64,000 nt of DNA from a virus (IMGVR_UViG_3300043219_000435); one strand, 5' to 3'. Shown: positions 128 to 13,535, counted from the stretch's first letter. Notes: generated from the sequence alone by a model not told the origin. Numbers and translations are program-made.

Positions 128-232
128 AATATCCTCCGGTTAACTAAAGTATATTATAAACTGGTAGACATGTCAATATAATAAATGTACTTTAGTTTAA
201 GCCGGAGAATTGGAATACAGGTGATTCTCTAA

Positions 233-372
233 GAGTCTGTGGCGAAATAGATATGCTAAAAGCTCTGTAATGGGGTATAGTCAGTAGATGTGGTCCCTGT
301 AAACCGAAAGGCAGACGGGGTTAGTTCTGAGAAAGCCTTACATCTTGTAGGAATCGAATCCTTCCAGGCTCT
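233..372 (+). ncRNA. tRNA-like / Y-RNA-like structured RNA, copy 1 (approx. 140 nt)
   Basis: 5' GAGTCTG pairs with 3' CAGGCTC (one G-U); D-arm-like GGCGAAATAGATATGC follows the 5' strand; T-arm-like AGGAATCGAATCCT precedes the 3' strand; approx. 90-nt structured insert where the anticodon arm would be; ends in a T-run. Confidence 0.55.
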
Positions 373-396
373 TTTTTAAACTAAAGTGAGGTATTA

Positions 397-717
397 ATGT
401 CAATCGACAGACGTGATTATTTAGTAACAGGTTATAAATTACCAGGGGATTTCTTAAACGATTATGATGAAGAAATACTTTTGCCGTATATTGAAGGAAG
501 ACAAGGATTAGAATATCGTATTATTGCCGATAGTATGTGTGGTGAATATGTAGTATTTGGATATGTTCACAGCTCATCTTCTTCCGATGTAGGTTGGGAT
601 TTTGTAGAGATTAATATTGAATGTTACAATGATAACATACTTAAACAGTTTCATAGTTTATTTTTCAAAGAACCTGATGTACCGTTAACTACTTTTATAT
701 TCAGCGAATTCTGTTAA
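397..717 (+). CDS. hypothetical protein
   Basis: ORF with RBS GAGGTATTA upstream; follows the AACTAAAGT motif. Confidence 0.45.
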   Translation: MSIDRRDYLVTGYKLPGDFLNDYDEEILLPYIEGRQGLEYRIIADSMCGEYVVFGYVHSSSSSDVGWDFVEINIECYNDNILKQFHSLFFKEPDVPLTTFIFSEFC

Positions 718-729
718 AACTTTAGTTGT

Positions 730-873
730 GAGTCTGTGGCGAAATAGAAATGCTAATCATATAGGATAGGGTAGGCTTCCTTTGGGCGAAGCTAGAGAGT
801 GATGAATGGATCGTAACCTTACCAATGACCTTATATGGAACTCTCATGCAGGAATCGAATCCTGTCAGACTCA
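730..873 (+). ncRNA. tRNA-like / Y-RNA-like structured RNA, copy 2
   Basis: GAGTCTG...CAGACTC terminal helix; identical GGCGAAATAGAAATGC box; T-arm CAGGAATCGAATCCTG; internal long helix ATATAGG/CCTTATAT and GGTAGG/CCTTACC. Confidence 0.55.
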
Positions 874-924
874 TTTTTAAACTAAAGTAGTTATAGACGT
901 GTCAACAGAATTTGACTACTTTAG

Positions 925-1542
925 TTGCCAAAAAGGATTATAATGAAATATTTAATAATAATAGCTATAACACTAATTACTTCTTGTGTAACAGACCCTA
1001 CACCTCCTGATTTGTCCTCCATAGAAGCTAAACATGAGGCACTTCAAACTAAAGTAGATTCATTGTCACAGATACCAACTAAAGTAGATACGGTTGTTAT
1101 TAATGATACTGTTACTGTGTTTGACACTTTAGTTGTGAATGACACCTCGTTTGTTGTTACTAAGGATACAATGTTTTTTGTTACTAATGATACTATGGTA
1201 GTTCGAGATACTTTAGTTGAATTTGTCCAACAAGATGTTGTAAAGTCGGTTGGTGTTGAAAGATTCAATAGAGCAGATTTTGATTTGGCAGACCTGGGCT
1301 ATCATATGTATAGTCAGGAATATACATACTGTTCAGAAGATAATCCCAGGTTGATAATTATCCAACTGTCAGGAACAGACGATGGTGTTTTTGTTCCATT
1401 ATCGTTGATTGTGGATTTATTTGATAGACACGACATGTTTTTAAGTTTTGTTCATAACAACTGTAGTTTTTCATTTGCTACAAACGATTTAGATTATCTA
1501 CTAGCAAACTATCAATATTATAAAATAATTATGATAGACTAA
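925..1542 (+). CDS. lipoprotein with degenerate V.NDT/DTLV repeats
   Basis: Signal peptide and lipobox (LITSC); 6 short repeats encoded by reiterated ACTAAAGT/ACTTTAGTT-like DNA. Confidence 0.5.
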   Translation: MPKRIIMKYLIIIAITLITSCVTDPTPPDLSSIEAKHEALQTKVDSLSQIPTKVDTVVINDTVTVFDTLVVNDTSFVVTKDTMFFVTNDTMVVRDTLVEFVQQDVVKSVGVERFNRADFDLADLGYHMYSQEYTYCSEDNPRLIIIQLSGTDDGVFVPLSLIVDLFDRHDMFLSFVHNNCSFSFATNDLDYLLANYQYYKIIMID

Positions 1543-1584
1543 CAATACAGCAATCAAATATTAAACTAAAGCAAATAGGAAGTT

Positions 1585-2169
1585 ATGAAAACAATATTAT
1601 TAATCATAATATCATTAAGTGTTTTGTTATCAGCTCAAACAAATAATGGTATATTACAAGCTAAAGACTCTTCATACATCATGGTGGGTATTGGTGCATC
1701 TAGTAGGTATAAGATGAATCTATCAATGGGGTATATTGGAAAAGATAGTGATATTGGAATTTTAGTTAATATAAAATTTGATCCTTCGTCTGATATTACT
1801 GATGAACTAGTATATACAGATTTAAGTAAAAATCCTTTCGGTGATAAAAATGTTACTCAAGATTACAAATCTAGTCAGTGGAATGTGGAATTGATGATAC
1901 GAATGTATGATTATCTTTACTTGAATCCAATTATTGGATGGGGAACCGATGATTATTACAATAAACTTCAGGACAACACTGGTATCCTTAGTAATGGTGG
2001 GGACTATTACTATACACCTGCATACACAGATCAATATTTTGTAACAGGTTTGGGTGCTATGTTAAAAATAGGTTATGTAGTTGCATTATTGGAACTTGAA
2101 GTACCTTTAGGCAACTCAGAAAATAACATATTAGTAGGATTTAACATAGGCTGTATGTTGGGTTGGTAA
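1585..2169 (+). CDS. secreted protein, possible outer-membrane beta-barrel
   Basis: N-terminal signal peptide; alternating hydrophobic strands; C-terminal ...GCMLGW ending in an aromatic residue. Confidence 0.45.
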   Translation: MKTILLIIISLSVLLSAQTNNGILQAKDSSYIMVGIGASSRYKMNLSMGYIGKDSDIGILVNIKFDPSSDITDELVYTDLSKNPFGDKNVTQDYKSSQWNVELMIRMYDYLYLNPIIGWGTDDYYNKLQDNTGILSNGGDYYYTPAYTDQYFVTGLGAMLKIGYVVALLELEVPLGNSENNILVGFNIGCMLGW

Positions 2170-2194
2170 TTAACTAAAGTAAAAAGGAAATAAC

Positions 2195-3253
2195 ATGAAG
2201 ATATTAATACTATTAGTATTATCAATTTTGTCTATTGTAAGTGGTGCAAACATAGATGAAGATTATTTAATTTGTCGAGAATTTGAAAAGAAAAAAGATT
2301 GGACTAAAGTAATTGAGTATTGTGACAAATCTATAAAGAACAAACCTGATGGCAACAACCCATATCATAAGTTATGTATAGCACATAGTATGGTAGGCAA
2401 TAATGAGAAAGCTATTGAAAATTGTACCGTAGTTATAGTTCGTAAAAAATTAAGTAAAGATTTACAATACTCGTCATATTATTATAGAGCATTTGCAGGT
2501 TATAAGTTAAAGTATTATGATAAAGCTCTAATGGATATAGAGAATGCTATCACCTTAAACCAAAAAGGTATGGATCAATATATATTACAAGGTAAAATTA
2601 GATATAGCTTAAATGAATATAAAAAAGCTGATATAAGTTTTTCTCGTGTTATCAACCAGGATCGCAATAATTATACTGCGACATATGGTAGATATCTCAC
2701 AAGGTTAAAGTTAGGTAATTACAAAGGTGCATATACTGATATAACATATGCCATAGATATTAATAAAAGTAAACCTTCTACAAAAGACCTATCCAAGTTA
2801 TATGTATTACGTGGTATAGTATCGAGTAAATTGACTAGATACAAGCAGTCATTTGTAGATTTTAATCATGCACTTAGTGTAGATTCTACAAATTATAAGT
2901 CGCATGTTGGAATAGCGCAACTTAAACATAAGTTGTGCGACTATTATGGTGCTATTCAATCATACAACAATGCTATAAAATTAAGTAAAATTAATTCATC
3001 ACTTTTAACATATCGTGCAGAATCATGGTCTGAATTAAGTGAATATAAAAATGCACTGGCAGATTGCAACAGTGCCATTAAAATAGACGCTAACTACGCA
3101 AAAGCATATTATATGCGTGGTATGATACGAATAAAACAAAATATACTAGACAATAAAGGTTTGTATGATTTGTCTATAGCTGCAAATTTAGGCATGTTTA
3201 AGGTGTATAACGTTTTAAGAAAAATACACAATAAACGGAATTCACCAAACTAA
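2195..3253 (+). CDS. secreted TPR-repeat protein
   Basis: Signal peptide; repeated A..Y..A/KA.Y.RG TPR-like helices. Confidence 0.5.
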   Translation: MKILILLVLSILSIVSGANIDEDYLICREFEKKKDWTKVIEYCDKSIKNKPDGNNPYHKLCIAHSMVGNNEKAIENCTVVIVRKKLSKDLQYSSYYYRAFAGYKLKYYDKALMDIENAITLNQKGMDQYILQGKIRYSLNEYKKADISFSRVINQDRNNYTATYGRYLTRLKLGNYKGAYTDITYAIDINKSKPSTKDLSKLYVLRGIVSSKLTRYKQSFVDFNHALSVDSTNYKSHVGIAQLKHKLCDYYGAIQSYNNAIKLSKINSSLLTYRAESWSELSEYKNALADCNSAIKIDANYAKAYYMRGMIRIKQNILDNKGLYDLSIAANLGMFKVYNVLRKIHNKRNSPN

Positions 3254-3279
3254 AGTAGTTTTGTTGAACAAGGAATATT

Positions 3280-3588
3280 ATGAGTAATGATCACCCCACA
3301 AATGATCCTGAGTTTGGTCTTGATTCAAGATACAGTTCTAATGCAGAATTAACTAAGGATACAATTGCTTTACTAAAGGCAAGATTAAATAGAAATAAGT
3401 TAATGTGTGAATCAGTTAAAAGTATGGCAGTAATTGATGTTGATACTTATGGTTCAGAAGCAGGATCTTTTTGTCCTATGTGTTATGGTAGACCTGATGA
3501 TAAAGGATTTGTTGATAACATATCAAAGATACATCATGAGTTAGACTGTGGTTATATTATAGCCATTGAATTATTAGAAGAAAACTAA
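3280..3588 (+). CDS. small Cys/His protein (CPMCYGRP..DCGY family)
   Basis: Paralog of 4534..4746; shared CPMCYGRP.DKGF.DN...HE.DCGY.IAIELL. Confidence 0.5.
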   Translation: MSNDHPTNDPEFGLDSRYSSNAELTKDTIALLKARLNRNKLMCESVKSMAVIDVDTYGSEAGSFCPMCYGRPDDKGFVDNISKIHHELDCGYIIAIELLEEN

Positions 3589-3602
3589 AGTAGGAATAGT
3601 AT

Positions 3603-3884
3603 ATGATAAAAATAATGTCATTGGCTGTAATATTGATCACTATGTGTTGGTTATGTTTTACCATCAAAATATACCATCTAACCGATAGTTTAGCAGCGAC
3701 TTTAGTTATTGGTTCTTTTGGATTGTTTATATCTTTGTATTTTTGGATAGATTTATATTTTGTAAGTTGTAGATACAGAGCTAGAAACTATATAAATGAA
3801 ACATTGTCCAATAACGACAAACCATCTGCTTCAGCTGCAGATCGAAACATTATGAAAATGATTAAAAACTGGAAACTAAAGTAG
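3603..3884 (+). CDS. small membrane protein
   Basis: Two predicted TM helices; RBS GGAATAG. Confidence 0.45.
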   Translation: MIKIMSLAVILITMCWLCFTIKIYHLTDSLAATLVIGSFGLFISLYFWIDLYFVSCRYRARNYINETLSNNDKPSASAADRNIMKMIKNWKLK

Positions 3885-3890
3885 GTTACG

Positions 3891-4070
3891 ATGAAAGATA
3901 TTAAGAAAGGTTACTACTGGGTGAAGTTTTACAACCATGATGTTATGCAAGTAATGTTGTTTAATGGCAAGAACTTTGAAGGTTTCAAGAGTGACAACTT
4001 AATACCCGATGAGATAGAGGGTTACGAGTATATTGATTACCCACCAGTGGGCTTGTGTAACGACAACTAA
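3891..4070 (+). CDS. hypothetical small protein (59 aa)
   Basis: ATG preceded by AACTAAAGTAGGTTACG; ends within the motif. Confidence 0.3.
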   Translation: MKDIKKGYYWVKFYNHDVMQVMLFNGKNFEGFKSDNLIPDEIEGYEYIDYPPVGLCNDN

Positions 4071-4210
4071 AGTACTTCCCATGGTTCTATATCTTCTTTT
4101 ACTAATATATCGTACATACGGGTTTTTGGATTATATTTGTATGTAGGACCATATTTTTTAACGGGTTTCGGTCCAACTAAAGTATCGAGGTGTTTAACGA
4201 GTTCTGTCAC
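4067..4210 (-). CDS. mini member of the LDTLV...WEV family (47 aa, GTG start)
   Basis: Translation VTELVKHLDTLVGP...EPWEVL; no ATG, so the start is uncertain. Confidence 0.3.
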   Translation of the reverse strand: MTELVKHLDTLVGPKPVKKYGPTYKYNPKTRMYDILVKEDIEPWEVL

Positions 4211-4216
4211 TTTAGT

Positions 4217-4516
4217 TTACTCAAAATTTATTCTGGTTGATCTATATAAGTGACCATCATTTATGTATTTTTGTATGTTATCCAAACCACATGTATATTG
4301 TTTTGAATAAAACCCAACTCTAGTACCAACATGTCCTTTTAAATACAACAATCTTATAACTTGATCAGACCTATCATAAATCAACAATGCAGCAGATCCA
4401 TTGCTCTTTAGTACATAATAAGCAAGTTCAAGTCGTATATGCTCTATCACTTTAGTTGCTGACATAACTACAGGCTGTATGTTATCTTCATGTTCTTCAT
4501 TAATAATTTGTTTCAT
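4217..4516 (-). CDS. hypothetical protein
   Basis: ORF with RBS GAGGGATAA; CACTTTAGTT lies upstream in sense. Confidence 0.45.
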   Translation of the reverse strand: MKQIINEEHEDNIQPVVMSATKVIEHIRLELAYYVLKSNGSAALLIYDRSDQVIRLLYLKGHVGTRVGFYSKQYTCGLDNIQKYINDGHLYRSTRINFE

Positions 4517-4533
4517 TTATCCCTCTTTTTAAA

Positions 4534-4746
4534 CTAAAGTGTTTTTAACAATTCAATTGCTATAGTATATCCACAATCTGGTTCATGTTCTATTTCGGCC
4601 ATGTTATCTGTAAAACCTTTATCATTAGGTCTTCCATAACACATTGGACAATATGAACCTGCTGTAGATCCATTAGTATCAAAATCAATTACAAGCATAT
4701 CTCTAATAGATTCACACATTGTTTTAATTTGTTCTTCATTAGTCAT
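4534..4746 (-). CDS. small Cys/His protein (CPMCYGRP..DCGY family)
   Basis: Paralog of 3280..3588. Confidence 0.5.
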   Translation of the reverse strand: MTNEEQIKTMCESIRDMLVIDFDTNGSTAGSYCPMCYGRPNDKGFTDNMAEIEHEPDCGYTIAIELLKTL

Positions 4747-5020
4747 ACTTTAGTTTCTCTATTGTAGATGTATAATTACTCAAGGCTTCTTTATTTAAAA
4801 ATACTACGTTAGTTCCGTCATGATATATTTCCAAATTTCGATAATATGTATATAATCCATATTGAGAAACCTTTTTCATATGAACTTTATCACCTTCAAC
4901 CTTTATCTGCTGTAAAGTAATAACAAATACCTTAAGCCTTTGATTATTATCTATATCATCGAAACCATATAATAAATTATCATCCATATCAAATATTAAA
5001 CACTTTTTAACTTCTTTCAT
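4739..5020 (-). CDS. hypothetical protein
   Basis: ORF; TACTTTAGTT plus RBS upstream. Confidence 0.4.
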   Translation of the reverse strand: MKEVKKCLIFDMDDNLLYGFDDIDNNQRLKVFVITLQQIKVEGDKVHMKKVSQYGLYTYYRNLEIYHDGTNVVFLNKEALSNYTSTIEKLKYD

Positions 5021-5052
5021 AATCCTATCTTATATCCATAACTAAAGTATCC

Positions 5053-5277
5053 TTACATATTGTCAATACTGTCTTTTAAATTCATTACAATACTATCAGT
5101 ATACAGTTTTTGTTCGTGCATACGGATTAAATTATGGTTCACCATTTTGTAGAGGATTTCAACATCTTCCTTCATACGTTCTATATGTACTTTTAAACGC
5201 ACTATTTCTTCATCGCCAGTATCTTCATCTAAAACACAGGAGGTTAATAATAGTGAAAATAGTATTACAAATTTCAT
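5053..5277 (-). CDS. small lipoprotein
   Basis: MKFVILFSLLLTSC signal peptide with lipobox. Confidence 0.45.
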   Translation of the reverse strand: MKFVILFSLLLTSCVLDEDTGDEEIVRLKVHIERMKEDVEILYKMVNHNLIRMHEQKLYTDSIVMNLKDSIDNM

Positions 5278-5631
5278 TTAGATTCCAATTATCCGTTTAA
5301 GTATGTCTCTTAAATCAACTAGATCTTGAGCGCAATATTCTCCTTCATCAATCCATTCATCAGACATCATTTCCAGAGCTTCTTTAATTGGGAATTTTTT
5401 ATAATTTCCATCTTCAGCGGTTAATCTTTTAGTGACATTTCCAACTAAAGTGTTTACAATTTTATCTGCAGCATCATCAATGTTTACATTGAATACTTTA
5501 GTTTCAGTTCTTTTTTCTCCACAACAGCAGTTTCCAGGTTCATTGCTATATGGAGAACTACAGTAAGGATTGTGGCATTGATATTTTGAATTTGTCCCTC
5601 TCAGGATATCTTTAATTTTTTCTTTATTCAT
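5278..5631 (-). CDS. Cys-rich protein
   Basis: Internal start MNKEK with a strong RBS GGAGGGAAAT; it overlaps the stop of the upstream gene (ATGAATAA). The longer track ORF 5278..5781 would overlap 5624..5971. Confidence 0.4.
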   Translation of the reverse strand: MNKEKIKDILRGTNSKYQCHNPYCSSPYSNEPGNCCCGEKRTETKVFNVNIDDAADKIVNTLVGNVTKRLTAEDGNYKKFPIKEALEMMSDEWIDEGEYCAQDLVDLRDILKRIIGI

Positions 5632-5971
5632 ATTTCCCTCCACATTCGCTGCAGAATTTATGTGGACATCCTGTTGTATAATCTTCATGCCAATGTTCGT
5701 AATTACAGTAAGGACAATTGTATTTAACATTTCTAAAGCTATCTCTTTCTGTAGTTGTAACAATTCTTTTCTTTGTTTCAACTAAAGTATTCATATGATA
5801 TTTTACTTTAGTTGCGAGTTTTTTGGCGCATTCTCCGCAGAATTCTACACCTTTATCTTCATAGCTCAAACTAAAGTAGTCACCGAATTCATCAGATATA
5901 TCATGTCCACACCATGAACCTACAAGTTCATATTCTTTTTTACATTTTTTACATATTGTCATATTTCCCAA
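5624..5971 (-). CDS. zinc-ribbon-rich protein
   Basis: Multiple CxxC pairs (CKKC, CGEC, CPYC, CSEC). Confidence 0.45.
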   Translation of the reverse strand: MGNMTICKKCKKEYELVGSWCGHDISDEFGDYFSLSYEDKGVEFCGECAKKLATKVKYHMNTLVETKKRIVTTTERDSFRNVKYNCPYCNYEHWHEDYTTGCPHKFCSECGGKYE

Positions 5972-6318
5972 CCTTGATATGTTAAATTGTTATTAGGATA
6001 CAAAATCAGTCTACATTTTTCATCTAAAGACATATAATCTGCACCTATACATTTGAAATCTGCAAATGAAGACATATAATCTGTGCTTCTTTTAAAGATA
6101 GAAATGATATTAACTTGATACATCCATACGGTGGTGTTTTTGTATTTTACAATATATATTACATTTTCATCATGAATATCTCTTTCTATGTGGAATTCTT
6201 CAAAAACTAAAGTGAAGTCATCATTATATTTTGTAGCCACCTCTAATATAACATCATACAATTTTTGATGTAATGGAGATCTTATTCCAACTAAAGTATC
6301 GAGATGTTCTGGTGTCAT
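5959..6318 (-). CDS. LDTLV...GWEV family protein
   Basis: MTPEHLDTLVG...YQGWEI; the track ORF extends to 6330 (MGSE-) using an ATG that lies inside the upstream gene's GWE codons. Confidence 0.55.
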   Translation of the reverse strand: MTPEHLDTLVGIRSPLHQKLYDVILEVATKYNDDFTLVFEEFHIERDIHDENVIYIVKYKNTTVWMYQVNIISIFKRSTDYMSSFADFKCIGADYMSLDEKCRLILYPNNNLTYQGWEI

Positions 6319-6963: not shown

Positions 6964-7034
6964 CTTTAAAGTATAATAAAAATATATAGACGAGTCAATA
7001 AAAAATATGTACTTTAGTTAAAAAGGATTAATAT

Positions 7035-7307: not shown

Positions 7308-7312
7308 AAGGA

Positions 7313-7600: not shown

Positions 7601-7608
7601 GAGTAAGT

Positions 7609-7818
7609 ATGAAGATAATAATTTTATTAAGTTTAATGGTTATGTCATGTAGTTATGATGTAAAATCGATTAAATGTTATTCTGATGATAAGGTAATATA
7701 CGAGAGTAATAATGTGTATAGTTTGATGTTAAATTCAAACAATCGATATACTATAATAGAGAAAGGTTCTAAAAAACATATAAATGTAAGTGGCAATTGT
7801 ATAGTGGAGCATTATTAA
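7609..7818 (+). CDS. small lipoprotein
   Basis: MKIIILLSLMVMSC lipobox. Confidence 0.45.
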   Translation: MKIIILLSLMVMSCSYDVKSIKCYSDDKVIYESNNVYSLMLNSNNRYTIIEKGSKKHINVSGNCIVEHY

Positions 7819-7819
7819 T

Positions 7820-8083
7820 ATGTCAAAAGATTTAAGGGATTTAAAGTCTTATACGATTGAGTTTGCATCGTGGAATAATGGTGACGATGATAATTTAAGT
7901 ACGAAGTTTATCACATATGATACAGAGGAAGAGGCTTTAGCTGTTTTGAAGCTGTGTCAGGACTGTGATAGTGTGAATGAAATCAGTAAAGAGTTGGATT
8001 TTTTAGAACATGAGAATCCAGATAATTTTTTAGTTGAGTTTTATATTCACCAACGTAAGCAATACATTTGGAAGAAGGAGTAA
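7820..8083 (+). CDS. SW.NDGD...ALA.LKLC family protein
   Basis: Paralog of 8335..8745 (FASWNNGDDDN...EEALAVLKLC). Confidence 0.45.
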   Translation: MSKDLRDLKSYTIEFASWNNGDDDNLSTKFITYDTEEEALAVLKLCQDCDSVNEISKELDFLEHENPDNFLVEFYIHQRKQYIWKKE

Positions 8084-8307
8084 ATATGTCAGAAGTAGAA
8101 GTAGTAAACGTTTGGGTATCGATCTCAGGAGATTATTGTGCATTCCATGAGATGGGTTTTTCAGTAGTATATGACATAACAAATGATATTCAGTTTGATG
8201 ATATGACATTAAAGGAATTGAAAGCTTTCAAAAATGATGGTGATTACTGTGATTATGAGAAGCGTAAAGCATTGAAAGATGGTAAGAATTATTATGTCAA
8301 ATGGTAG
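8068..8307 (+). CDS. hypothetical protein (weakly related GDYC motif)
   Basis: ORF with RBS AGGAGTAAAT. Confidence 0.4.
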   Translation: MEEGVNMSEVEVVNVWVSISGDYCAFHEMGFSVVYDITNDIQFDDMTLKELKAFKNDGDYCDYEKRKALKDGKNYYVKW

Positions 8308-8334
8308 AAGCAACTAAAGTAAAAAGGAATAAAT

Positions 8335-8745
8335 ATGGCAAAGAAATTAATAGCTAACAAAGGTTATACAGTTGAAGTTGAATCCTGGGAAAATGATGGT
8401 GATTATCGTGCAACTGAAACCATTGTCTATGAAAACAAGGAAAAGGCTTTAGCATTACTTAAGTTGTGCAAAAAATTGTTTTCTGATGGGGACGGTGGTA
8501 TTGGTAATGGTATGGGTGGATCTGAAGAGAAGATTAAAGCGTATGCAAAAAAGAACCGCAAGGTTATATCTACACTTTTTGGTGAAGATATTGATATTGA
8601 TAACGGGGATCATATTGTAGACTCCATTCGTGATTTAAAAGGTGATATAATGGGTTATACTGAAATATATGACTCAAGAGTATTTGAGAGTGGAACTGTA
8701 TATTATTCACCTGAAGATGTATATTTAGAAGTGATAAAAAAGTAA
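8335..8745 (+). CDS. SW.NDGD...ALA.LKLC family protein
   Basis: VESWENDGDYRATE...EKALALLKLC; RBS AAAGGAATAAAT. Confidence 0.45.
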   Translation: MAKKLIANKGYTVEVESWENDGDYRATETIVYENKEKALALLKLCKKLFSDGDGGIGNGMGGSEEKIKAYAKKNRKVISTLFGEDIDIDNGDHIVDSIRDLKGDIMGYTEIYDSRVFESGTVYYSPEDVYLEVIKK

Positions 8746-8752
8746 CTAAAGT

Positions 8753-8944
8753 ATGAGCGATTGTATTTGTCATAAATGTATAAAAGAGAATAATTTAACG
8801 AATGAAGCTGGTTGGCCGTTAAGTTCTTGTGTAATGATAGTGTGTGACATATGTGGCAATAAACGCTGTCCAAAGGCTTCTGACCATGCTTTAGCTTGTA
8901 CTAATAGCAATGCACCAGGACAGCCAGGAAGTATCTACAGGTAA
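8753..8944 (+). CDS. Cys-rich small protein
   Basis: CICHKC...CDICGNKRCP. Confidence 0.4.
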   Translation: MSDCICHKCIKENNLTNEAGWPLSSCVMIVCDICGNKRCPKASDHALACTNSNAPGQPGSIYR

Positions 8945-8947
8945 CGT

Positions 8948-9145
8948 ATGGATGTAAAATTTAAAGATTTAGAGAATGGTGATATGTTTGAATGTTATGG
9001 TGATATTTTCATTAACTATAATTATTCAAAGATCTGCAGGTGTATTAAGATAGATGAGGATACCGCTCAGGAGATAGATGGTTGTAATTTTCTGGTGGAT
9101 CATAGTGATTATGTATATAAGGTGGATTCAAATGAAAGAATATAA
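8948..9145 (+). CDS. hypothetical protein
   Basis: ORF coupled to the upstream gene. Confidence 0.35.
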   Translation: MDVKFKDLENGDMFECYGDIFINYNYSKICRCIKIDEDTAQEIDGCNFLVDHSDYVYKVDSNERI

Positions 9146-9572
9146 AGTTTTTATGGATTCGAGCATTAAGATTTATACTAAAGAAGAGAATCCTGATATG
9201 ACCTATTATGGGTTTTTAGATTTCTTATATAATGAAGGTTGTAAAAAACCATATTATAGAACTAAAGATACTCAGTTTTATAATTCGATGTATGGTCCAT
9301 ATCATAATTGTTTACGTTTGATGAGATCTAGATATAACCAATCTGGATTTTATCCTGGATGGGACATCCGTGAAGATCGTAGAAAGTTACGTAGGTTGTT
9401 CTTCTATAAATTGGAAGAAGAGGTACAGGCAGCTTTAAATCCGTTAAAATTGGATGATACAATGACGTGGGCAGCTTTAAGTTTGGATCAAGGTGGTTAT
9501 ACATCAATTGATGTTGAATACACTTCACAGACTCTATTTTCAACTGGTAAAGGTTGGGAAATAAATAGTTGA
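9132..9572 (+). CDS. hypothetical protein with a GWEI-type C-terminus
   Basis: MKEYKVF... start with RBS AAGGTGGA; ends ..GKGWEINS. Confidence 0.4.
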   Translation: MKEYKVFMDSSIKIYTKEENPDMTYYGFLDFLYNEGCKKPYYRTKDTQFYNSMYGPYHNCLRLMRSRYNQSGFYPGWDIREDRRKLRRLFFYKLEEEVQAALNPLKLDDTMTWAALSLDQGGYTSIDVEYTSQTLFSTGKGWEINS

Positions 9573-9602
9573 CAAACTGAAGTGATTAATGTACTTTAGT
9601 TG

Positions 9603-9763
9603 TGCGCTGTTGGCGAAACATTGTGCAGACGCTCAGGGATCATAACTCTTATTTAAATTGACTAAGACAAGCATCCCTGGATTTGCGAATGGAAGATTGC
9701 GAGGGGTATACACCGGACAATTGGAAACGAGTAGAATAGGGGTTCGAATCCTTTACGGCGCAT
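9603..9763 (+). ncRNA. tRNA-like / Y-RNA-like structured RNA, copy 3
   Basis: TGCGCTG pairs with CGGCGCA (covarying relative to copies 1 and 2); TTGGCGAAACATTGTGC box; T-arm-like AGGGGTTCGAATCCTTT; starts directly after TACTTTAGTT. Confidence 0.55.
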
Positions 9764-9784
9764 TTTCAACTAAAGTGAATAAAC

Positions 9785-10093
9785 ATGAATAAAGATTGTC
9801 CTTTTTGCGGAGCTGTGGTATTTAAAAATGATTTTGGCAATGCATCTATAGAACATAAAAAAACTTGTTATTTCAACGAAATATATGCATTTCAAGGAAT
9901 ACAAATTTTAGATCTAGAAAAATGGAATAAGCGTGTTATCCCTTCAATGTATAGAGAAATAACAATAAAATCTGTTAAGAGTGTTCGAAGGATATCCAAC
10001 GCAGGTTTGAAAGAATCATTGAACGCACTTAAAGAATGTGACGGTGATATTGATAAAGCTGTAGAATTGTTGAAATTAACTAAAGTGAGATAA
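9785..10093 (+). CDS. zinc-ribbon protein with a UBA-like (EF-Ts N-terminal-like) domain
   Basis: N-terminal CPFCG...; C-terminal LKESLNALKECDGDIDKAVELL resembles the EF-Ts N-terminus (..CKKAL.E..GDIE.AIE.LR). Confidence 0.4.
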   Translation: MNKDCPFCGAVVFKNDFGNASIEHKKTCYFNEIYAFQGIQILDLEKWNKRVIPSMYREITIKSVKSVRRISNAGLKESLNALKECDGDIDKAVELLKLTKVR

Positions 10094-10095
10094 AC

Positions 10096-10302
10096 ATGAC
10101 AGATAATCAGATAAGTGCAGTAATAATATTTTCAATAGTAGAATTCTTCAATTTAATGTTTATGTTTATATTGTTATGTGATGGAAAATTCAGGACGAAA
10201 CTTCAGTTTTTAATTCATTTGTTTATACCATGGAGTTTAATGTATAGATTGTTCAGATATTGGTTTTTATCAGTAGAATCTGCGTGGGTCAGACTAAAGT
10301 AA
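10096..10302 (+). CDS. small membrane protein
   Basis: Hydrophobic helices. Confidence 0.4.
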   Translation: MTDNQISAVIIFSIVEFFNLMFMFILLCDGKFRTKLQFLIHLFIPWSLMYRLFRYWFLSVESAWVRLK

Positions 10303-10437
10303 ATAGGAATAATTATTATGGAAAAATTAGATGCACTTATAAAGATGATAAAGTTGTTTGTAGTCATATTTGTAATATATGGATTTGCATCATTGGTTCG
10401 TGATGTAATTAACTTACTTTAGTTTAAAAGGAAAACT

Positions 10438-10740
10438 ATGGCAGATAAAGAAAAGTGTGAAGAGATTATTTTAGAAGAGCACAAGAATGGTAATGTAGTA
10501 ACCTTTACAATAGAAGGCCCCGTAGCTCACAACCTAAAGGAATTTATCAAGCAGCCAGTTGACGGATTGTTATATGATTTGAATCGTTTAGAGGAAGTTG
10601 CGTTATCTTTGATAGATGATCCAAAATATGTAAATGATTTTGCAGTAGCTAAAGTGATCAGAGAATTATATAGACAATTAGAAGAATTAAAAGAAAAAGA
10701 AAAATTATATAAAGACGCATTAGAAGAGTGTAGACAGTAA
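10438..10740 (+). CDS. hypothetical protein
   Basis: TACTTTAGTT followed by RBS AAAGGAAAACT. Confidence 0.45.
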   Translation: MADKEKCEEIILEEHKNGNVVTFTIEGPVAHNLKEFIKQPVDGLLYDLNRLEEVALSLIDDPKYVNDFAVAKVIRELYRQLEELKEKEKLYKDALEECRQ

Positions 10741-10959
10741 TTACTTTAGTTTAAATAGTTACTCCGAATAATAATAACATAGAGCATATAAAGATAAGCC
10801 AACAGAAAACAATATACATGTCTGTAATTAAATCTCTTTTATTATCAACATTTTGTTGTATATCGTCTTTAGATTCTACCATTTGGTATCCTTTTTAATT
10901 TAAAGTAAATAAAAATATGGTAATGTCAAACAAAAAAATGTACTTTAGTTGTAAAAGGA

Positions 10960-11304
10960 TTGGCTATGAAAATATTAATTATAATAACATGTATGGTGTT
11001 TGGTTATGCTTTAGCTGATGACACGGAAGATATTACTCTTGTTGAGTTGTGTAAATATGCAGGATATGCACATATGTTAGGTGATGTGCATATATCTAAT
11101 GAGTTGCTACAGCAAGCGTTTACAAAAATACTAGTACCACCATGCGACAGTCTTAAAATTGAAACCCGTAGATGTTGGGATTTGTTTGATACTAGTAAAA
11201 AGATAGGTCTTCCTATTAGTGAACGTGAGTTAATAGGAAAAAAAATAGTCAAACTAAAGTTTATAGATATTCATCCTTCAATTTCCCATCCTTCTTTACA
11301 ATAA
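10960..11304 (+). CDS. secreted hypothetical protein
   Basis: Signal peptide MAMKILIIITCMVFGYALA. Confidence 0.45.
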   Translation: MAMKILIIITCMVFGYALADDTEDITLVELCKYAGYAHMLGDVHISNELLQQAFTKILVPPCDSLKIETRRCWDLFDTSKKIGLPISERELIGKKIVKLKFIDIHPSISHPSLQ

Positions 11305-11621
11305 AAATACCTTGATTGTAATTTATATTCTTGTGCAAATCCAATAAGTTTAATAGTCATTCTAATAAGAATTTCGTCTGGTTCAACTAATTTATAAGTC
11401 GGTACAGTCCTTCTAAATCTTCCTTTATATGTCCGTTTTAGTTTATTACTTTTGATTAGATATTTTCTTATAGAATCCATACTTTCAGGATCAAATGAAA
11501 ATATCAGAGTATTTCCAGTAGTATTTTCAATAATACCAATTAGTTTTTTATATGTGCTATCAAATACTTTAGTTGCTTTTTTATCCGCTACAACTAAAGT
11601 GTCCAGGTATTCATGGTTCAT
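11271..11621 (-). CDS. LDTLV...GWEV family protein
   Basis: MNHEYLDTLVV...KEGWEIEG. Confidence 0.55.
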   Translation of the reverse strand: MNHEYLDTLVVADKKATKVFDSTYKKLIGIIENTTGNTLIFSFDPESMDSIRKYLIKSNKLKRTYKGRFRRTVPTYKLVEPDEILIRMTIKLIGFAQEYKLQSRYFYCKEGWEIEG

Positions 11622-12052
11622 TCAATTTCCCATCCATCACCGGTTGTATGTTGAAGTCTGGTTGTATTTTCACAGATTCTTTGATATAGTAATTTGTCAA
11701 GTTCATCTACTTCTTTGCTTATATCTTCTTTAATATCAAATAATAATAGGTAGGTCGATATCCATTGATTATCTTTATCTGCTAACCATTTTTTATAATT
11801 AGTTACATCAGTTGATTGGTTCATCACTACTTTTTCTTCAGCCATGAGTATCATAGTAATTTTCATGATGTCTTTTTTGAAGTCATCCATGAAGTCGAAT
11901 TTTTGTTTGCCGTATGGATCGTTTAGATAACGAGATGAATCCTGGTTCATTATATTCAAAACAATATATTCTCTACATTTTTCATATTCTTTCTGCTGGT
12001 TGTGTGGTAGAATAACTCCAACTAAAGTATCAAGGTATTTCGGATCGTACAT
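11618..12052 (-). CDS. LDTLV...GWEV family protein
   Basis: MYDPKYLDTLVG...GDGWEIE. Confidence 0.55.
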   Translation of the reverse strand: MYDPKYLDTLVGVILPHNQQKEYEKCREYIVLNIMNQDSSRYLNDPYGKQKFDFMDDFKKDIMKITMILMAEEKVVMNQSTDVTNYKKWLADKDNQWISTYLLLFDIKEDISKEVDELDKLLYQRICENTTRLQHTTGDGWEIE

Positions 12053-12328
12053 TTAATATTCCCATCCTGTTTTAGGGTGAAAGATCATATCAATATAATA
12101 TCCGGCAATGATGCTAAACATTCTCGCTTCAAGATCATATACATCTTTAATACCATGTGAATCTACACTAATTATTTGAAATGATTCCTGACCTTGAAAA
12201 CCGATAAGTGTTTCACCATTTTCATAATGTTCAATTGCTTTAATTCTTTCTTTAAAGAATAGGTCTCTTACTTCAGTTGAGATTGTCGGTTTAACTAAAG
12301 TGTCCAGGTGTTTATAATTCATATTCAA
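12053..12328 (-). CDS. LDTLV...GWEV family protein
   Basis: MNMNYKHLDTLVKP...KTGWEY. Confidence 0.55.
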   Translation of the reverse strand: MNMNYKHLDTLVKPTISTEVRDLFFKERIKAIEHYENGETLIGFQGQESFQIISVDSHGIKDVYDLEARMFSIIAGYYIDMIFHPKTGWEY

Positions 12329-12557
12329 GTTCTTTTTGAGTATATTCTTTTCCGTTTATAACTTGTCTCAGAGTGACTACATCAATTTCATATGCTTTCC
12401 AATCTTCCAGGACGTAGATATAATGTTTAATCACTTTAGTTGATTCTCTGGGAGCCGGTTCGAGCATATCCATTTTATATGCATATGCAGCGTAATAAGA
12501 TCCTTCTATCAATGCAAAGTCACTGAATCTTCTTGATCTAAACAATGGAGCATTCAT
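12312..12557 (-). CDS. hypothetical protein inside the array (carries the motif in another frame)
   Basis: No LDTLV or GWEV; STKV is encoded by ACTAAAGT in a different frame. Confidence 0.4.
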   Translation of the reverse strand: MNAPLFRSRRFSDFALIEGSYYAAYAYKMDMLEPAPRESTKVIKHYIYVLEDWKAYEIDVVTLRQVINGKEYTQKELEYEL

Positions 12558-12709
12558 ATAACCTCCCAGCTACTGCATTTATTAATATAGAGATTTGAAA
12601 CAATTTTATAGACATAATTATGTCTGTCGTTATATGTAGTAAGCTTTGAGAAATCTATAGGCTTCTTTTTCCGAGGCCCAACTAAAGTATCCAGGTATTC
12701 AACAGTCAT
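12554..12709 (-). CDS. LDTLV...WEV family protein (51 aa, absent from the ORF track)
   Basis: MTVEYLDTLVGP...SSWEVI; ATGA overlaps on both sides. Confidence 0.45.
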   Translation of the reverse strand: MTVEYLDTLVGPRKKKPIDFSKLTTYNDRHNYVYKIVSNLYINKCSSWEVI

Positions 12710-13059
12710 ACTTCCCATCCTTCACCTTCACTATAACTACTGCAATGTTCACAATATTTTTTCATTTCTTTAATATGAAGTGGTGAGTCATCGAAATCAA
12801 ATCTTTTTATATGTCGTTTATTTTGCGAAGAGATAAAATGTTCGATTCGTATTCGATACATATTATTAGTATTTGGATGGTTTAAAATGGAATGATCTAT
12901 TAATAGTGTGATTAATACATAATTCAAAAATCCATATGAGCCTTTGAAATATATATTACTATATGTCAATGATTTTATGCCTTCATATATCACTTCAAAT
13001 AATTGATCTGACTTTAGTTTCTCCGGCCCAACTAAAGTATCCAGGTGTTCAACAGTCAT
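12706..13059 (-). CDS. LDTLV...GWEV family protein
   Basis: MTVEHLDTLVGP...GEGWEV; the track version starts at 13068 (MGSM). Confidence 0.55.
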   Translation of the reverse strand: MTVEHLDTLVGPEKLKSDQLFEVIYEGIKSLTYSNIYFKGSYGFLNYVLITLLIDHSILNHPNTNNMYRIRIEHFISSQNKRHIKRFDFDDSPLHIKEMKKYCEHCSSYSEGEGWEV

Positions 13060-13415
13060 ACTTCCCATCCTTCACCTGTTGTATCATTTGGGTCATATTT
13101 GAATGTTACAAGTGATACAATTTCAGTAAGTATTTTTTGATAGTCTTCCATTTTTCCAGATATTATATATCTGGCTAATGTTATTGTAATTCTATCGAAA
13201 TTATAATTGTACAACGGGAATAAGCGAGTATGGTGTATGAATCTTTCGGTTACTCTTCTAGTATCTGGATAAGCTATTTCTTTCATATCTGCAATAGTTT
13301 GATGGACACATATAAGTGCAGCCATATATTGTTCATCAGATATTTTTTTAGTTGTAGTAACTAAAGTGTCAAGATATTTTACTTTATAATTTTTTGTATC
13401 CAAAATTTTCCACAT
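13056..13415 (-). CDS. LDTLV...GWEV family protein
   Basis: ..YKVKYLDTLVTT...GEGWEV. Confidence 0.5.
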   Translation of the reverse strand: MWKILDTKNYKVKYLDTLVTTTKKISDEQYMAALICVHQTIADMKEIAYPDTRRVTERFIHHTRLFPLYNYNFDRITITLARYIISGKMEDYQKILTEIVSLVTFKYDPNDTTGEGWEV

Positions 13416-13423
13416 TTAAATAA

Positions 13424-13535
13424 AGAGTCTGGTAGGATTCTAACCTACAATTTAAGATCCGTTTATCGAGATTTTACCGTCTTTGACAACTTAAAGGAAC
13501 CTGACATCCTGCGATTATCATTTCGCTTCAGACTC
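13424..13535 (-). ncRNA. tRNA-like / Y-RNA-like structured RNA, copy 4 (minus strand)
   Basis: Minus-sense 5' GAGTCTG AA GCGA-AATGATAA-TCGC (clean D-arm) ... T-arm GTAGG-TTAGAAT-CCTAC then CAGACTC at the 3' end. Confidence 0.5.

What the first reader, a model, noticed from the sequence alone, without database searches (positions are those of the whole stretch)
233..13535. Four dispersed 110-160-nt tRNA-like RNAs with a covarying terminal helix and a large insert in place of the anticodon arm
Copies at 233-372 (+), 730-873 (+), 9603-9763 (+) and 13424-13535 (-) share a 5' strand followed by TG/AA and a GCGAAAT...GC D-arm-like box. Copy 4 has a perfect D-arm, GCGA-AATGATAA-TCGC. All share a 3' T-arm-like hairpin (AGGAATCGAATCCT, AGGGGTTCGAATCCTTT, GTAGGTTAGAATCCTAC) followed by the strand complementary to the 5' end. 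The terminal helix covaries: GAGTCTG/CAGACTC in three copies and TGCGCTG/CGGCGCA in copy 3. The 70-100-nt middle folds into long interrupted helices, for example ATATAGG/CCTTATAT plus GGTAGG/CCTTACC in copy 2. Copy 1 contains GTGGTCCCTG, reminiscent of the GGUCCGA Ro-binding strand. Copies 1-3 each end in a T-run, begin directly after the TTTAGTTGTG motif and precede a small ORF. They could be non-permuted Y-RNA-like partners of the Ro60 gene, intron-bearing tRNAs whose exons would need RtcB ligation, or a new phage tRNA-like regulatory RNA.
Basis: seen in the sequence. Interest (0 to 1): 0.8.

Follow-up and report, generated by a model that had tools for sequence, protein, structure and literature searches.

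The report
tRNA-shaped leader RNAs in a phage
A large uncultured phage carries at least four (probably six) 60-160-nt RNA elements with a tRNA-like outer frame around an unrelated long arm; they lie just downstream of promoters or between genes, end in a U-run and most likely act as leader/terminator RNAs, not as decoding tRNAs, intron-bearing tRNAs or Ro60 partners.

Summary
All four copies are at the stated coordinates. They share a 7-bp terminal helix, a GCGAAA(Y) D-like hairpin, a T-like hairpin that abuts the 3' strand, and a T-run. Copy 3 keeps the terminal helix through four double (compensatory) changes. Copy 4 passes Rfam's tRNA threshold with 56 nt in place of the anticodon arm. Copies 1 and 2 are only loosely tRNA-like, with an 8-nt T-loop.

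I found two further relatives, at 24174-24323(-) and 38374-38433(-). The TTTAGTT motif is the -10 region of a phage promoter class, TTGACA-N17-TACTTTAGTT. Copies 3 and 4 start exactly 7 nt after it.

Every element is co-oriented with the next ORF and lies in front of it. Four sit just downstream of a promoter and two lie between ORFs.

- **Intron-bearing tRNA:** not supported. ARAGORN's intron calls are no better than on shuffled interiors.
- **Y-RNA-like:** not supported. There is no YrlA match, the copies lie 48-62 kb from Ro60, and a separate YrlA-like cluster sits beside Ro60.
- **Best reading (inferred, confidence 0.4):** tRNA-derived leader/attenuator RNAs.

This is a new variant of a known kind and is moderately interesting.

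The parts
165..197 (+). Promoter of copy 1 (TAGACA-N17-TACTTTAGTT). A leader follows at about 200-232, containing the hairpin GAGAAT...ATTCTC.
   Evidence: Pattern search: 11 matches with at most 1 mismatch, 0 expected. The promoter and leader are 92% conserved in the relative L006.
233..372 (+). Copy 1. 5' strand 233-239. D-like hairpin 242-256 (GCG-9 nt-TGC). Long rod about 260-346. T-like hairpin 347-364 (GTAGG-AATCGAAT-CCTTC, one T-T mismatch). 3' strand 365-371. T-run 372-377.
397..717 (+). 106-aa ORF that follows copy 1. There is no promoter in between. It lies between copy 1 and copy 2.
   Evidence: A 43%-identical homologue elsewhere has no such leader.
730..873 (+). Copy 2. 5' strand 730-736, 7 nt after a weak -10 (AACTTT, 718-723). 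D-like hairpin 739-753. Nested long helices. T-like hairpin 848-865. 3' strand 866-872. T-run 874-878. It sits at the 3' end of the ORF 397-717 unit.
9569..9601 (+). Exact promoter TTGACA-N17-TACTTTAGTT in front of copy 3. The -10 ends at 9597 and the helix starts at 9604.
9604..9762 (+). Copy 3. 5' strand GCGCTGT 9604-9610 (an outer T-A pair 9603/9762 is also possible). D-like hairpin 9613-9626. T-arm AGGGG-TTCGAAT-CCTTT 9738-9754. 3' strand ACGGCGC 9755-9761. TTTT 9763-9766. ORF 9785-10093 follows.
13424..13535 (-). Copy 4. 5' strand 13535-13529. D-arm GCGA-AATGATAA-TCGC 13526-13511. Three small hairpins. T-arm GTAGG-TTAGAAT-CCTAC 13448-13432. 3' strand 13431-13425. T-run from 13424. Promoter TTGACT-N17-TACTTT at 13570-13542, whose -10 ends 7 nt before the first G. 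ORF 13415-13056 starts 9 nt after the helix.
24174..24323 (-). Probable fifth member. Terminal helix TGAGTTG/CGACTCA, which is copy 2's helix minus one base pair. GNRA hairpin in the D position. Long rod. Hairpin GTAGG-ATAATAA-CCTAT in the T position. TTTATTTTTT follows. Exact promoter at 24368-24336. An ORF with HTH domains follows at 24153-23677.
38374..38433 (-). 60-nt minimal relative. Acceptor-like helix GACGAGG/CCTCGTC. One hairpin (loop GUCCGG). T-arm GGGAG-TTCGAAT-CTCTC. TTTTTAAACTAAAGT and the next start codon follow. It lies between two ORFs.
   Evidence: Sub-threshold Rfam tRNA match of 24.1 bits.

Best explanation
These elements form a family of tRNA-derived structured RNAs that sit at the start or end of phage transcription units and act in cis.

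**Shown directly**
- Each element is co-oriented with the next ORF.
- Copies 3 and 4 begin exactly 7 nt after the -10 hexamer of a sigma-70-type promoter, TTGACA/TTGACT-N17-TACTTT. Copy 2 has the same spacing after a weak promoter.
- Copy 1 and the fifth element have the promoter plus a short leader.
- No other promoter lies between an element and the following ORF or operon.
- The RNA can fold into a 7-bp clamp helix made from its two ends, a small D-like hairpin, one or more long variable arms in place of the anticodon arm, and a 5-bp T-like hairpin stacked on the clamp.
- A U-run follows the clamp at once. The phage's true tRNAs lack this U-run.

**Inferred**
- The clamp plus T-hairpin minihelix followed by the U-run works as a factor-independent terminator or attenuator.
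- Transcription from these promoters would therefore yield an abundant, stable, tRNA-shaped RNA of 110-160 nt. Read-through gives the mRNA of the downstream genes.
- Copy 2 and the 60-nt element would end or punctuate the upstream cistron.
- The tRNA-like acceptor/T minihelix (G+1, mostly U-1) probably lets host tRNA-processing enzymes (RNase P, RNase Z) cut the element away from flanking mRNA. Plant mitochondrial t-elements work this way.
- The middle arm is free to vary or to be swapped.
For: **Promoters and start sites**
- The promoter class is real: 11 matches against 0 expected.
- The spacing to the first helix base can be read directly from the sequence.

**U-run**
- Five of six elements have at least 5 T in the 7 nt after the helix, and copy 3 has TTTT.
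- The background rate for such windows is 6.4%.
- The three true tRNAs have 0-2 T there.

**Helices**
- Compensatory changes maintain the helices.
- There are about ten G-U pairs and no A-C pairs. All six elements are co-oriented with their downstream ORFs. Both points indicate function on the sense-strand RNA.

**Comparison with the relative**
- In the only close relative (L006, IMG/VR contig of 211 kb), the slot of copy 1 keeps the promoter, leader hairpin, terminal helix GAGTCTG/CAGACTC, a 3' hairpin, TTTTTT and AAACTAAAGT, at 92% flank identity.
- Its interior cannot be aligned, and the D box and T-loop are gone.
- The conserved core is therefore the clamp plus the U-run.

**tRNA ancestry**
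- Copy 4 passes the Rfam tRNA threshold.
- The ends of copy 3 are accepted by ARAGORN once an anticodon arm is supplied.

**Context**
- Canonical hairpin terminators are scarce in 1-15500: 1 found against 4.4 expected in shuffles.
Against: - There are no expression data. The transcript ends are inferred from sequence alone.
- A helix that closes a 100-150-nt domain is not a typical intrinsic terminator, and no alternative antiterminator fold was found.
- Fold energies of copies 1-3 are not better than those of shuffles.
- If only the clamp and U-run matter, it is unexplained why copies 1-3 keep the GGCGAAA and TCGAATCC boxes while the clamp itself has changed at most positions. That pattern hints at a tRNA-specific partner.
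- Only one relative could be found, so the covariation rests on a few paralogues. The alignments were hand-trimmed.
- Canonical terminators do exist elsewhere in the phage.
Confidence: 0.4

Rival explanations
1. They are trans-acting, stable tRNA-mimic small RNAs. The tRNA-like frame acts as a protective scaffold and a handle for tRNA-binding proteins. The variable long arm carries the specific function. Possible partners include the phage's Ro60 or RNA-repair proteins, or host tRNA-directed defence nucleases for which the RNAs would act as decoys. The position in front of ORFs would be incidental.
For: - Copies 3 and 4 look like self-contained genes: promoter, RNA, U-run.
- The D and T boxes are retained while the clamp covaries.
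- The window encodes many RNA- and tRNA-directed proteins: Ro60, RtcB, RlaP, Tpt1/KptA, a PNKP phosphatase domain, PTH2 and EF-Ts.
- D. radiodurans Yrn1 has the same non-permuted topology, with a T arm and the 5'/3' ends forming the stem (PMC4201824).
- The pattern of conserved ends and swapped middles in copies 1 and 2 and in L006 suits a scaffold-plus-cargo design.
Against: - There is no YrlA match, the copies are far from Ro60, and they lack the motif shared by all Ro60-adjacent units.
- No antisense target above chance was found in the window.
- The relative's version has lost the tRNA-like boxes.
- Downstream ORFs have no other promoter, so read-through must happen.
- The T-loop of copies 1 and 2 is non-canonical.
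Confidence: 0.25
2. They are tRNA genes interrupted by short introns. The introns would be removed by an unknown endonuclease, and the exons joined by the phage RtcB to give decoding tRNAs. Oversized tRNA genes with 'enigmatic introns' have been reported in Lak megaphages.
For: - RtcB and Tpt1 are encoded in the window.
- There is a literature precedent for oversized phage tRNA genes (bioRxiv 10.1101/356790).
- At an 80% threshold ARAGORN can parse copy 4 as a 72-nt tRNA(CAG) with a 40-nt intron that can be placed at position 37/38.
Against: - ARAGORN makes no call at default threshold.
- The relaxed calls also occur in 280-300 of 300 versions with shuffled interiors, so they carry no information.
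- The same control shows that default-threshold intron calls on similar elements from other phages are also uninformative: 50-93% of shuffles are called.
- The native sequence after the D-arm of copy 4 forms a 4-bp stem with an 8-nt loop, not an anticodon arm.
- The ends of copies 1 and 2 are not tRNA-grade.
- There is no group I or other intron match.
- No splicing endonuclease was found in the ORFs scanned.
- The U-run and the positions in front of ORFs or between ORFs are unlike the phage's real tRNA genes.
Confidence: 0.04
3. They are decaying tRNA pseudogenes or a repeated DNA module with no RNA-level function of its own. Examples would be leftovers of promoter-tRNA-terminator cassettes or recombination scars. 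The shared ends would be kept similar by gene conversion.
For: - The ends of copies 1 and 2 are nearly identical while the interiors are unrelated.
- The relative's slot shows cassette-like replacement with sharp boundaries.
- Fold energies are mostly no better than those of shuffles.
- No homologues were found outside this lineage.
Against: - Four compensatory double changes keep the clamp of copy 3 intact, and the T-stems also covary.
- There is a G-U versus A-C asymmetry, and orientation is consistent with downstream genes in six of six cases.
- The U-run is present throughout.
- The start sits exactly 7 nt from the -10 in copies 2, 3 and 4.
- No TIR/TSD signature of a mobile element is present.
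Confidence: 0.15

Closest known systems
tRNA (Rfam RF00005), class II type
   Same: - A 7-bp acceptor-like helix formed by the two ends.
- A 2-nt linker (UG in copies 1-3).
- A D-hairpin whose sequence GCGAAAU is typical of class II tRNAs.
- A T-arm that abuts the 3' strand.
- No encoded CCA, as in the phage's own tRNAs.
- Copy 4 exceeds the Rfam gathering score.
   Different: - There is no anticodon arm. Unrelated sequence of 56-105 nt takes its place.
- The D-loops lack GG.
- The T-loop has 8 nt in copies 1 and 2 and lacks C56 in copy 4.
- ARAGORN finds none of the copies.
- A U-run follows, and each element sits in front of an ORF.
Oversized tRNA or pseudo-tRNA genes with 'enigmatic introns' in Lak megaphages and other huge phages (Devoto et al., bioRxiv 10.1101/356790)
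   Same: - These are phage genes with tRNA-like ends and an insert of tens to about 100 nt that is not a group I intron.
- I found the same architecture in unrelated viral contigs: X1 (L071 and 11 identical copies), X2 (L074), X3 (L079) and L187.
   Different: - Those genes are reported as decoding tRNAs, with anticodons assigned by tRNAscan.
- X1-X3 have tRNA-grade ends and no U-run.
- The elements here have weaker tRNA features and no recoverable anticodon arm.
- Some of the elements here have their own promoter, and all have a U-run.
YrlA / bacterial Y RNAs (RF02553) and D. radiodurans Yrn1 (PMC4201824)
   Same: - They are non-coding RNAs with a tRNA-like module in genomes that encode Ro60.
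- Yrn1 shares the non-permuted order: 5'/3' stem, D-like features, an arm, then a T arm.
- GGCGAA in copies 1-3 resembles GNCGAAN0-1G.
   Different: - YrlA is permuted (T, closed acceptor-like stem, D), lies within 4 kb of Ro60 on the same strand and matches RF02553.
- None of that holds for the elements here.
- The phage has a separate YrlA-like cluster beside Ro60.
t-elements of plant mitochondria (PMC1920247) and mascRNA-type tRNA-like processing signals (the latter from my own knowledge)
   Same: They are tRNA-like structures embedded in mRNA precursors, next to coding regions, that lack an anticodon function. They are cut by RNase P or RNase Z to define transcript ends.
   Different: - They occur in a different domain of life, and cleavage there has been shown by experiment.
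- Here cleavage is only inferred.
- The elements here also carry a U-run, and several start at the transcription start site.
Promoter-proximal terminated leader RNAs of phages, such as lambda 6S RNA from pR' to tR' (from my own knowledge)
   Same: The layout is a promoter, a short structured RNA ending in a terminator, and then genes whose expression needs read-through.
   Different: The lambda leader is not tRNA-like, and its terminator is a conventional hairpin. No antiterminator has been identified here.
tmRNA tRNA-like domain; engineered 'tRNA scaffold' RNAs (from my own knowledge)
   Same: The acceptor and T arms are formed by the two ends, and a large insert replaces the anticodon arm.
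   Different: - There is no tmRNA call from ARAGORN or Rfam.
- There is no G3-U70 pair and no tag reading frame.
- The elements are far smaller than tmRNA.

Membership tests
tRNA (RF00005) | Score at or above the Rfam gathering score (29 bits) | tested here: inconclusive
   Copy 4 scores 36.4 bits, but only with a 56-nt local insert. Copies 1-3 give no match at E<=10. The 60-nt element scores 24.1 bits.
tRNA (RF00005) | Anticodon arm (5-bp stem, 7-nt loop with U33) | tested here: not met
   No such arm is present natively. ARAGORN finds no gene.
tRNA (RF00005) | 7-bp acceptor helix, D-arm and T-arm of tRNA quality | tested here: inconclusive
   With an ideal anticodon arm swapped in, ARAGORN accepts copy 3 at default threshold and copy 4 at 90%. 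It never accepts copies 1 and 2.
Intron-containing tRNA | Removing one segment restores a canonical anticodon stem-loop better than chance would | tested here: not met
   ARAGORN -i makes no calls at default threshold. At 80% it calls copies 3 and 4, but also 300 of 300 and 280 of 300 shuffled interiors.
Intron-containing tRNA | A splicing mechanism is present (group I fold, or a splicing endonuclease gene) | tested here: not met
   There is no intron family match in Rfam. No endonuclease domain was found in about 45 ORFs scanned, though small ORFs and the rest of the genome were not covered. The ligase RtcB is present.
YrlA / Y RNA-like (RF02553) | Match to the RF02553 covariance model | tested here: not met
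   No match at E<=10 in 1-14500. Sub-threshold matches of 25-38 bits occur only at 60830-61447.
YrlA / Y RNA-like (RF02553) | Encoded within about 4 kb of Ro60 on the same strand (PMC4201824) | tested here: not met
   Ro60 is at 61835-63517(-). The copies lie 48-62 kb away, and three of the four are on the + strand.
YrlA / Y RNA-like (RF02553) | Permuted order: T arm, closed acceptor-like stem, D arm | tested here: not met
   The order here is D, insert, T, with open ends.
YrlA / Y RNA-like (RF02553) | GNCGAAN0-1G motif near the 5' end | tested here: inconclusive
   Copies 1-3 have GGCGAA at positions 9-14 but without the closing G. Copy 4 has AGCGAA. The string is also the D-stem and D-loop of a class II tRNA.
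YrlA / Y RNA-like (RF02553) | Binding to Ro60 | not testable with these tools
   This needs immunoprecipitation or a binding assay.
Intrinsic (factor-independent) terminator | A stable helix followed at once by a U-run | tested here: met
   A 7-bp helix with at least 3 G-C pairs stacks on a 5-bp hairpin, followed by 4-6 U.
Intrinsic (factor-independent) terminator | A short G+C-rich hairpin with a small loop | tested here: not met
   The helix closes a domain of 45-145 nt. The consensus terminator scan does not list these elements.
tmRNA | tRNA-like domain with G3-U70 and a tag reading frame; detection by ARAGORN or Rfam | tested here: not met
   No tmRNA call was made. Pair 3-70 is G-C in all copies.
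tRNA-like processing element (t-element type) | Cleavage by RNase P or RNase Z at the element borders | not testable with these tools
   The only support is sequence context: G+1 in every element with a U at -1 in most, and an acceptor/T minihelix.

The most novel reading that the evidence does not exclude
The phage uses a tRNA frame as a natural scaffold for a set of interchangeable RNA 'cargo' arms. Each cargo RNA would be made from its own early promoter. The released tRNA-shaped RNAs would work in trans, either with the phage's unusually rich RNA-repair and Ro60 toolkit or as decoys or sensors for host tRNA-cleaving defences. Their fate (intact, cleaved or repaired) would gate read-through into the downstream operons. 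That would be a new class of phage regulatory RNA. It might also give the 'enigmatic intron' tRNA genes of huge phages a function.
Probability: 0.12. Interest if true: 0.85.

Novelty: new variant of a known kind. Interest (0 to 1): 0.55.

Why it matters
- If the elements are expressed as predicted, they are tRNA-shaped RNAs recruited as leaders, terminators or punctuation marks of phage operons. That use of the tRNA fold is known from organelles and eukaryotic nuclei but has not been described for phage transcription units.
- They occur in a genome that also encodes Ro60, a YrlA-like RNA cluster, RtcB, Tpt1, a PNKP phosphatase domain, RlaP, PTH2 and EF-Ts. This makes the phage a compact system for asking what tRNA mimicry does during infection.
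- The shuffle controls give a practical warning. Once the ends of a gene are tRNA-like, intron-aware tRNA finders call an 'intron-containing tRNA' for almost any interior. Oversized phage tRNA genes reported with introns may therefore include non-decoding tRNA-like RNAs of this kind.

Tried and rejected
**Searches for relatives**
- *Close DNA relatives among GenBank phages (near and distant modes):* none found. Searches with copies 3 and 4 hit only T-arm fragments of tRNA genes at non-significant E-values.
- *Exact-pattern scans of IMG/VR with the shared 5' end:* only chance hits in high-GC contigs.
- *Exact-pattern scan with the shared 3' end:* only the one relative contig.
- *Promoter-pattern scan of IMG/VR:* mostly single chance hits. 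Relatives were picked out by 9-mer density (L006, L007, L045, L060).
- *Protein-anchored retrieval of syntenic relatives:* this found one IMG/VR contig of 211 kb (L006; TPR protein 84% identical). Nothing was found in metagenome contigs, nothing with the ORF upstream of copy 3, and nothing with the DTLV paralogue alignments.
- *Homologues of downstream ORFs in the 5.8-billion-protein set:* only the same sample, plus one 43%-identical protein that has no leader.

**Tests that were uninformative or negative**
- *My covariance model R1:* it found only copy 4 in full, because inserts of 90-105 nt exceed what local ends tolerate. It found real tRNAs in other loci and nothing in L006.
- *Antisense targets of the variable arms in the window:* nothing above chance.
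- *MITE or transposon reading:* rejected. The inverted repeat is only 7-8 bp, there is no target-site duplication, and G-U pairs are strand-specific.
- *Retron, tmRNA, group I intron and riboswitch readings:* no Rfam or ARAGORN support.
- *The 'Ro-binding' GTGGTCCCTG of copy 1:* it occurs in one copy only and matches 5 of 7 positions, so I treat it as chance.

Full report
**Setting**

The window has 30.8% G+C and no close relative among GenBank phages. It is clearly phage-like. It has many small ORFs and several tRNA genes. It also has a striking set of RNA-directed genes:
- RtcB (41816-42919, minus strand)
- Ro60/TROVE (61835-63517, minus strand)
- RlaP (53593-54528, minus strand)
- Tpt1/KptA (19910-20476, minus strand)
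- a PNKP phosphatase domain (51189-51650, minus strand)
- EF-Ts, PTH2, NUDIX, SIR2 and an NAD-dependent DNA ligase

Identical proteins come from one sample (SRR11832402) and a 131-kb JGI contig. One related IMG/VR contig of 211 kb exists. Its locus L006 encodes a TPR protein 84% identical to the one in the window.

- Copies 1 and 2 share 26 of 27 nt at the 5' end and a 14-nt identical block in the T-like hairpin. Their middles are unrelated.
- Copy 4 is the only one any public model recognises. It scores 36.4 bits against Rfam tRNA (gathering score 29, E=1.3e-4), with 56 nt where the 17-nt anticodon arm belongs.
- ARAGORN finds none of the four.

I built a hand-trimmed alignment of the outer parts, with the middles replaced by a placeholder and one loop base removed from three sequences.
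- 98% of cells in the terminal, D and T helices pair, against 32-47% when the 3' partners are slid.
- 4 of 7 terminal pairs and 2 of 5 T-stem pairs change on both sides.
- No shuffle out of 500 reached the observed values.

The better register for copy 3 is GCGCTGT/ACGGCGC. The T-stem then abuts the 3' strand and the UG linker precedes GCGAAA, exactly as in copies 1 and 2.

The scan of bacterial genomes gives an independent control. Of 103 places that match the D-box/T-loop pattern at the right spacing, none has complementary 7-mers and a T-stem at the required positions.

**How tRNA-like are they?**

I swapped an ideal anticodon arm and variable loop into each element.
- ARAGORN accepts copy 3 at default threshold and copy 4 at 90%.
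- It never accepts copies 1 and 2. Their T-loop has 8 nt and their D-stem has 3 bp.

The cloverleaf-like fold equals the minimum free energy for copy 4. It lies 3-5 kcal/mol above it for copies 1-3. Whole-element energies are not better than those of shuffles, except for copy 4 (z -2.2).

The box GCGAAAU matches the D-arm of the phage's own class II-like tRNA gene at 60716 (AGCGAAATTGGTAAACGC). This points to descent from class II tRNA genes.

**More members**

Two scans found further elements. One looked for a hairpin abutting a 7-nt strand that pairs with an upstream 7-mer. The other used my covariance model R1.
- *24174-24323 (minus strand).* It has the same T-stem, GTAGG/CCTAT, and its terminal helix is copy 2's minus one base pair.
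- *38374-38433 (minus strand).* This is a 60-nt form with the T-arm GGGAG-TTCGAAT-CTCTC.

Both are followed by a T-run.

**Context**

In the form TTGACA-N17-TACTTTAGTT it is a sigma-70-type promoter class, with 11 matches at up to one mismatch against none expected.

Positions relative to promoters:
- The first G of copy 3 (9604) lies 7 nt after the -10 hexamer (9592-9597).
- Copy 4 (13535) lies 7 nt after TACTTT (13547-13542), which follows TTGACT at 17-nt spacing.
- Copy 2 has the same spacing after a weak promoter.
- Copy 1 and the fifth element have such promoters plus short leaders.

Features shared by all elements:
- Each is co-oriented with the next ORF and precedes it by 8-70 nt.
- No other promoter intervenes, except after copy 2.
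- Five of six have at least 5 T in the 7 nt after the helix, and copy 3 has TTTT. The background rate is 6.4%, and the real tRNAs have 0-2 T there.
- G-U pairs are frequent and A-C pairs are absent. The structure therefore belongs to the sense strand.

**The relative**

In L006 the slot of copy 1 keeps the following at about 92% identity: the promoter, the leader hairpin, GAGTCTG, a 3' hairpin, CCAGACTC, TTTTTT and AAACTAAAGT. Between the helix strands the sequence cannot be aligned, and the D box and T-loop are gone. The 21 kb of L006 contain no T-arm-type hairpin.

The core that survives is therefore the clamp helix plus the U-run. The interior behaves like an exchangeable cassette.

*Y RNA.*
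- There is no RF02553 match at E<=10.
- Four sub-threshold YrlA matches (25-38 bits), in the expected permuted order, lie directly downstream of Ro60 at 60830-61447.
- All units there, including two tRNA-like genes, are preceded by TGCAR-N7-TTACWTCG. The 6 matches all lie between 60716 and 61733.
- Published criteria are a position within 4 kb of Ro60 on the same strand, a permuted order and the motif GNCGAAN0-1G (PMC4201824). The first two are not met and the third is ambiguous.

*Intron-bearing tRNA.*
- ARAGORN with introns allowed makes no call at default threshold.
- At 80% it parses copies 3 and 4. It does the same for 300 of 300 and 280 of 300 sequences with shuffled interiors.
- No intron family or splicing endonuclease was detected.

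**Similar elements elsewhere**

I scanned with the gapped pattern TGGCGAAAYA-N95-125-TCGAATCCT. Among the 25 matches in viral contigs, three distinct sequences have perfect 7-bp terminal helices and T-arms: GGTGGTA/TGCCACC, GTTGAGA/TCTCAAC and GAGAGAG/CTCTCTC. A fourth came from a metagenome.
- One of them (X1) occurs as 12 identical copies and lies in a lambdoid nin-type region.
- Their ends are tRNA-grade.
- They lack the U-run.

They resemble the oversized tRNA genes with 'enigmatic introns' reported for Lak megaphages (bioRxiv 10.1101/356790). ARAGORN's default intron calls on them are reproduced by 50-93% of shuffled interiors.

**Conclusion**

The finding is a real, strand-specific RNA family derived from tRNA genes. 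It is not a set of decoding tRNAs, intron-bearing tRNAs or YrlA-type Y RNAs.

*Best-supported reading (inferred, confidence 0.4).*
- The elements are leader or punctuation RNAs. Four lie just downstream of promoters and two lie between cistrons.
- The clamp plus T-hairpin and U-run terminate or attenuate transcription.
- This would give a stable tRNA-shaped RNA of 110-160 nt, while read-through expresses the downstream genes.
- The tRNA-like minihelix probably serves as a handle for RNase P or RNase Z.

*Main rival (0.25).* The released RNAs are the point, acting in trans as tRNA mimics or scaffolds. This rival is favoured by the retention of the D and T boxes in copies 1-3.

Expression data would decide between these readings.

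Noticed in passing
whole window, e.g. 189-197, 379-387, 719-727, 9593-9601: The 9-mer ACTTTAGTT/AACTAAAGT occurs 56+65 times in 64 kb, and 70 times in 21 kb of the relative L006. It has three uses. It forms the -10 region of the promoter class TTGACA-N17-TACTTTAGTT. In the opposite orientation it sits just upstream of ribosome-binding sites, often supplying the TAA stop of the previous gene. It also occurs in frame as T-L-V inside coding regions. No single explanation covers all three uses.
   Followed up: partly
window 60637-61733 (-): A cluster of permuted, YrlA-like tRNA-like units (Rfam YrlA 25-38 bits, below threshold) and odd tRNA-like genes lies directly downstream of the Ro60 gene. Each unit is preceded by TGCAR-N7-TTACWTCG (6 matches, 0.01 expected). 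The odd genes are a 'tRNA-Ser(GCU)' without a long variable arm and a CAU-anticodon tRNA-like gene with a long variable arm but no acceptor stem. These units are the likely true Ro60 partners.
   Followed up: partly
window 4217-6963 (-) and 11271-13415 (-): A tandem paralogous family of about 10 small proteins has the N-terminal motif M..EHLDTLV and the C-terminal motif GWEV(K). The genes overlap. The DTLV codons coincide with the 9-mer motif. Copy 4 is the leader of one such array.
   Followed up: partly
window 17441-17514 (+): Another intergenic RNA candidate lies downstream of a TACTTTAGTT box. It has a canonical T-arm hairpin (TCAAG-TTCGAAT-CTTGG) but no tRNA-like terminal geometry.
   Followed up: no
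window 19910-20476 (-), 41816-42919 (-), 51189-51650 (-), 53593-54528 (-), 61835-63517 (-), 17864-18739 (+): The window holds an unusually complete RNA-repair and tRNA toolkit for a phage: Tpt1/KptA, RtcB, a PNKP phosphatase domain, RlaP, Ro60 and EF-Ts, plus PTH2, NUDIX and SIR2 nearby. This suggests the phage counters host nucleases that target tRNA.
   Followed up: partly
L071:7841-7996 (-) and 11 identical copies; L074:1104-1234 (+); L079:2513-2669 (+); L187:6795-6930 (-): Unrelated viral and metagenome contigs carry genes with tRNA-grade ends, a class II-type D-arm and an insert of 80-105 nt between the D and T arms. One of them lies in a lambdoid nin-type region. None of 103 matches to the same pattern in bacterial genomes has this geometry.
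   Followed up: partly
method: With tRNA-like ends fixed, ARAGORN's intron mode calls an intron-containing tRNA for 50-93% of shuffled interiors at default threshold, and for 93-100% at 80% threshold. Such calls on oversized phage tRNA genes are therefore not evidence for introns.
   Followed up: yes
L006:14468-14720 compared with window 125-400: The slot of copy 1 shows cassette-like replacement. The flanks are 92% identical up to the helix strands and the interior cannot be aligned. The window also carries about 1.2 kb that L006 lacks (a 106-aa ORF, copy 2, a promoter and a lipoprotein-like ORF).
   Followed up: partly
window 28067-28185 (+): An exact TTGACA-N17-TACTTTAGTT promoter is followed after about 50 nt by a canonical, bidirectional-looking hairpin terminator (AAAAAACAGATC...GATCTGTTTTTTTT). 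It may be a small RNA of about 85 nt.
   Followed up: no
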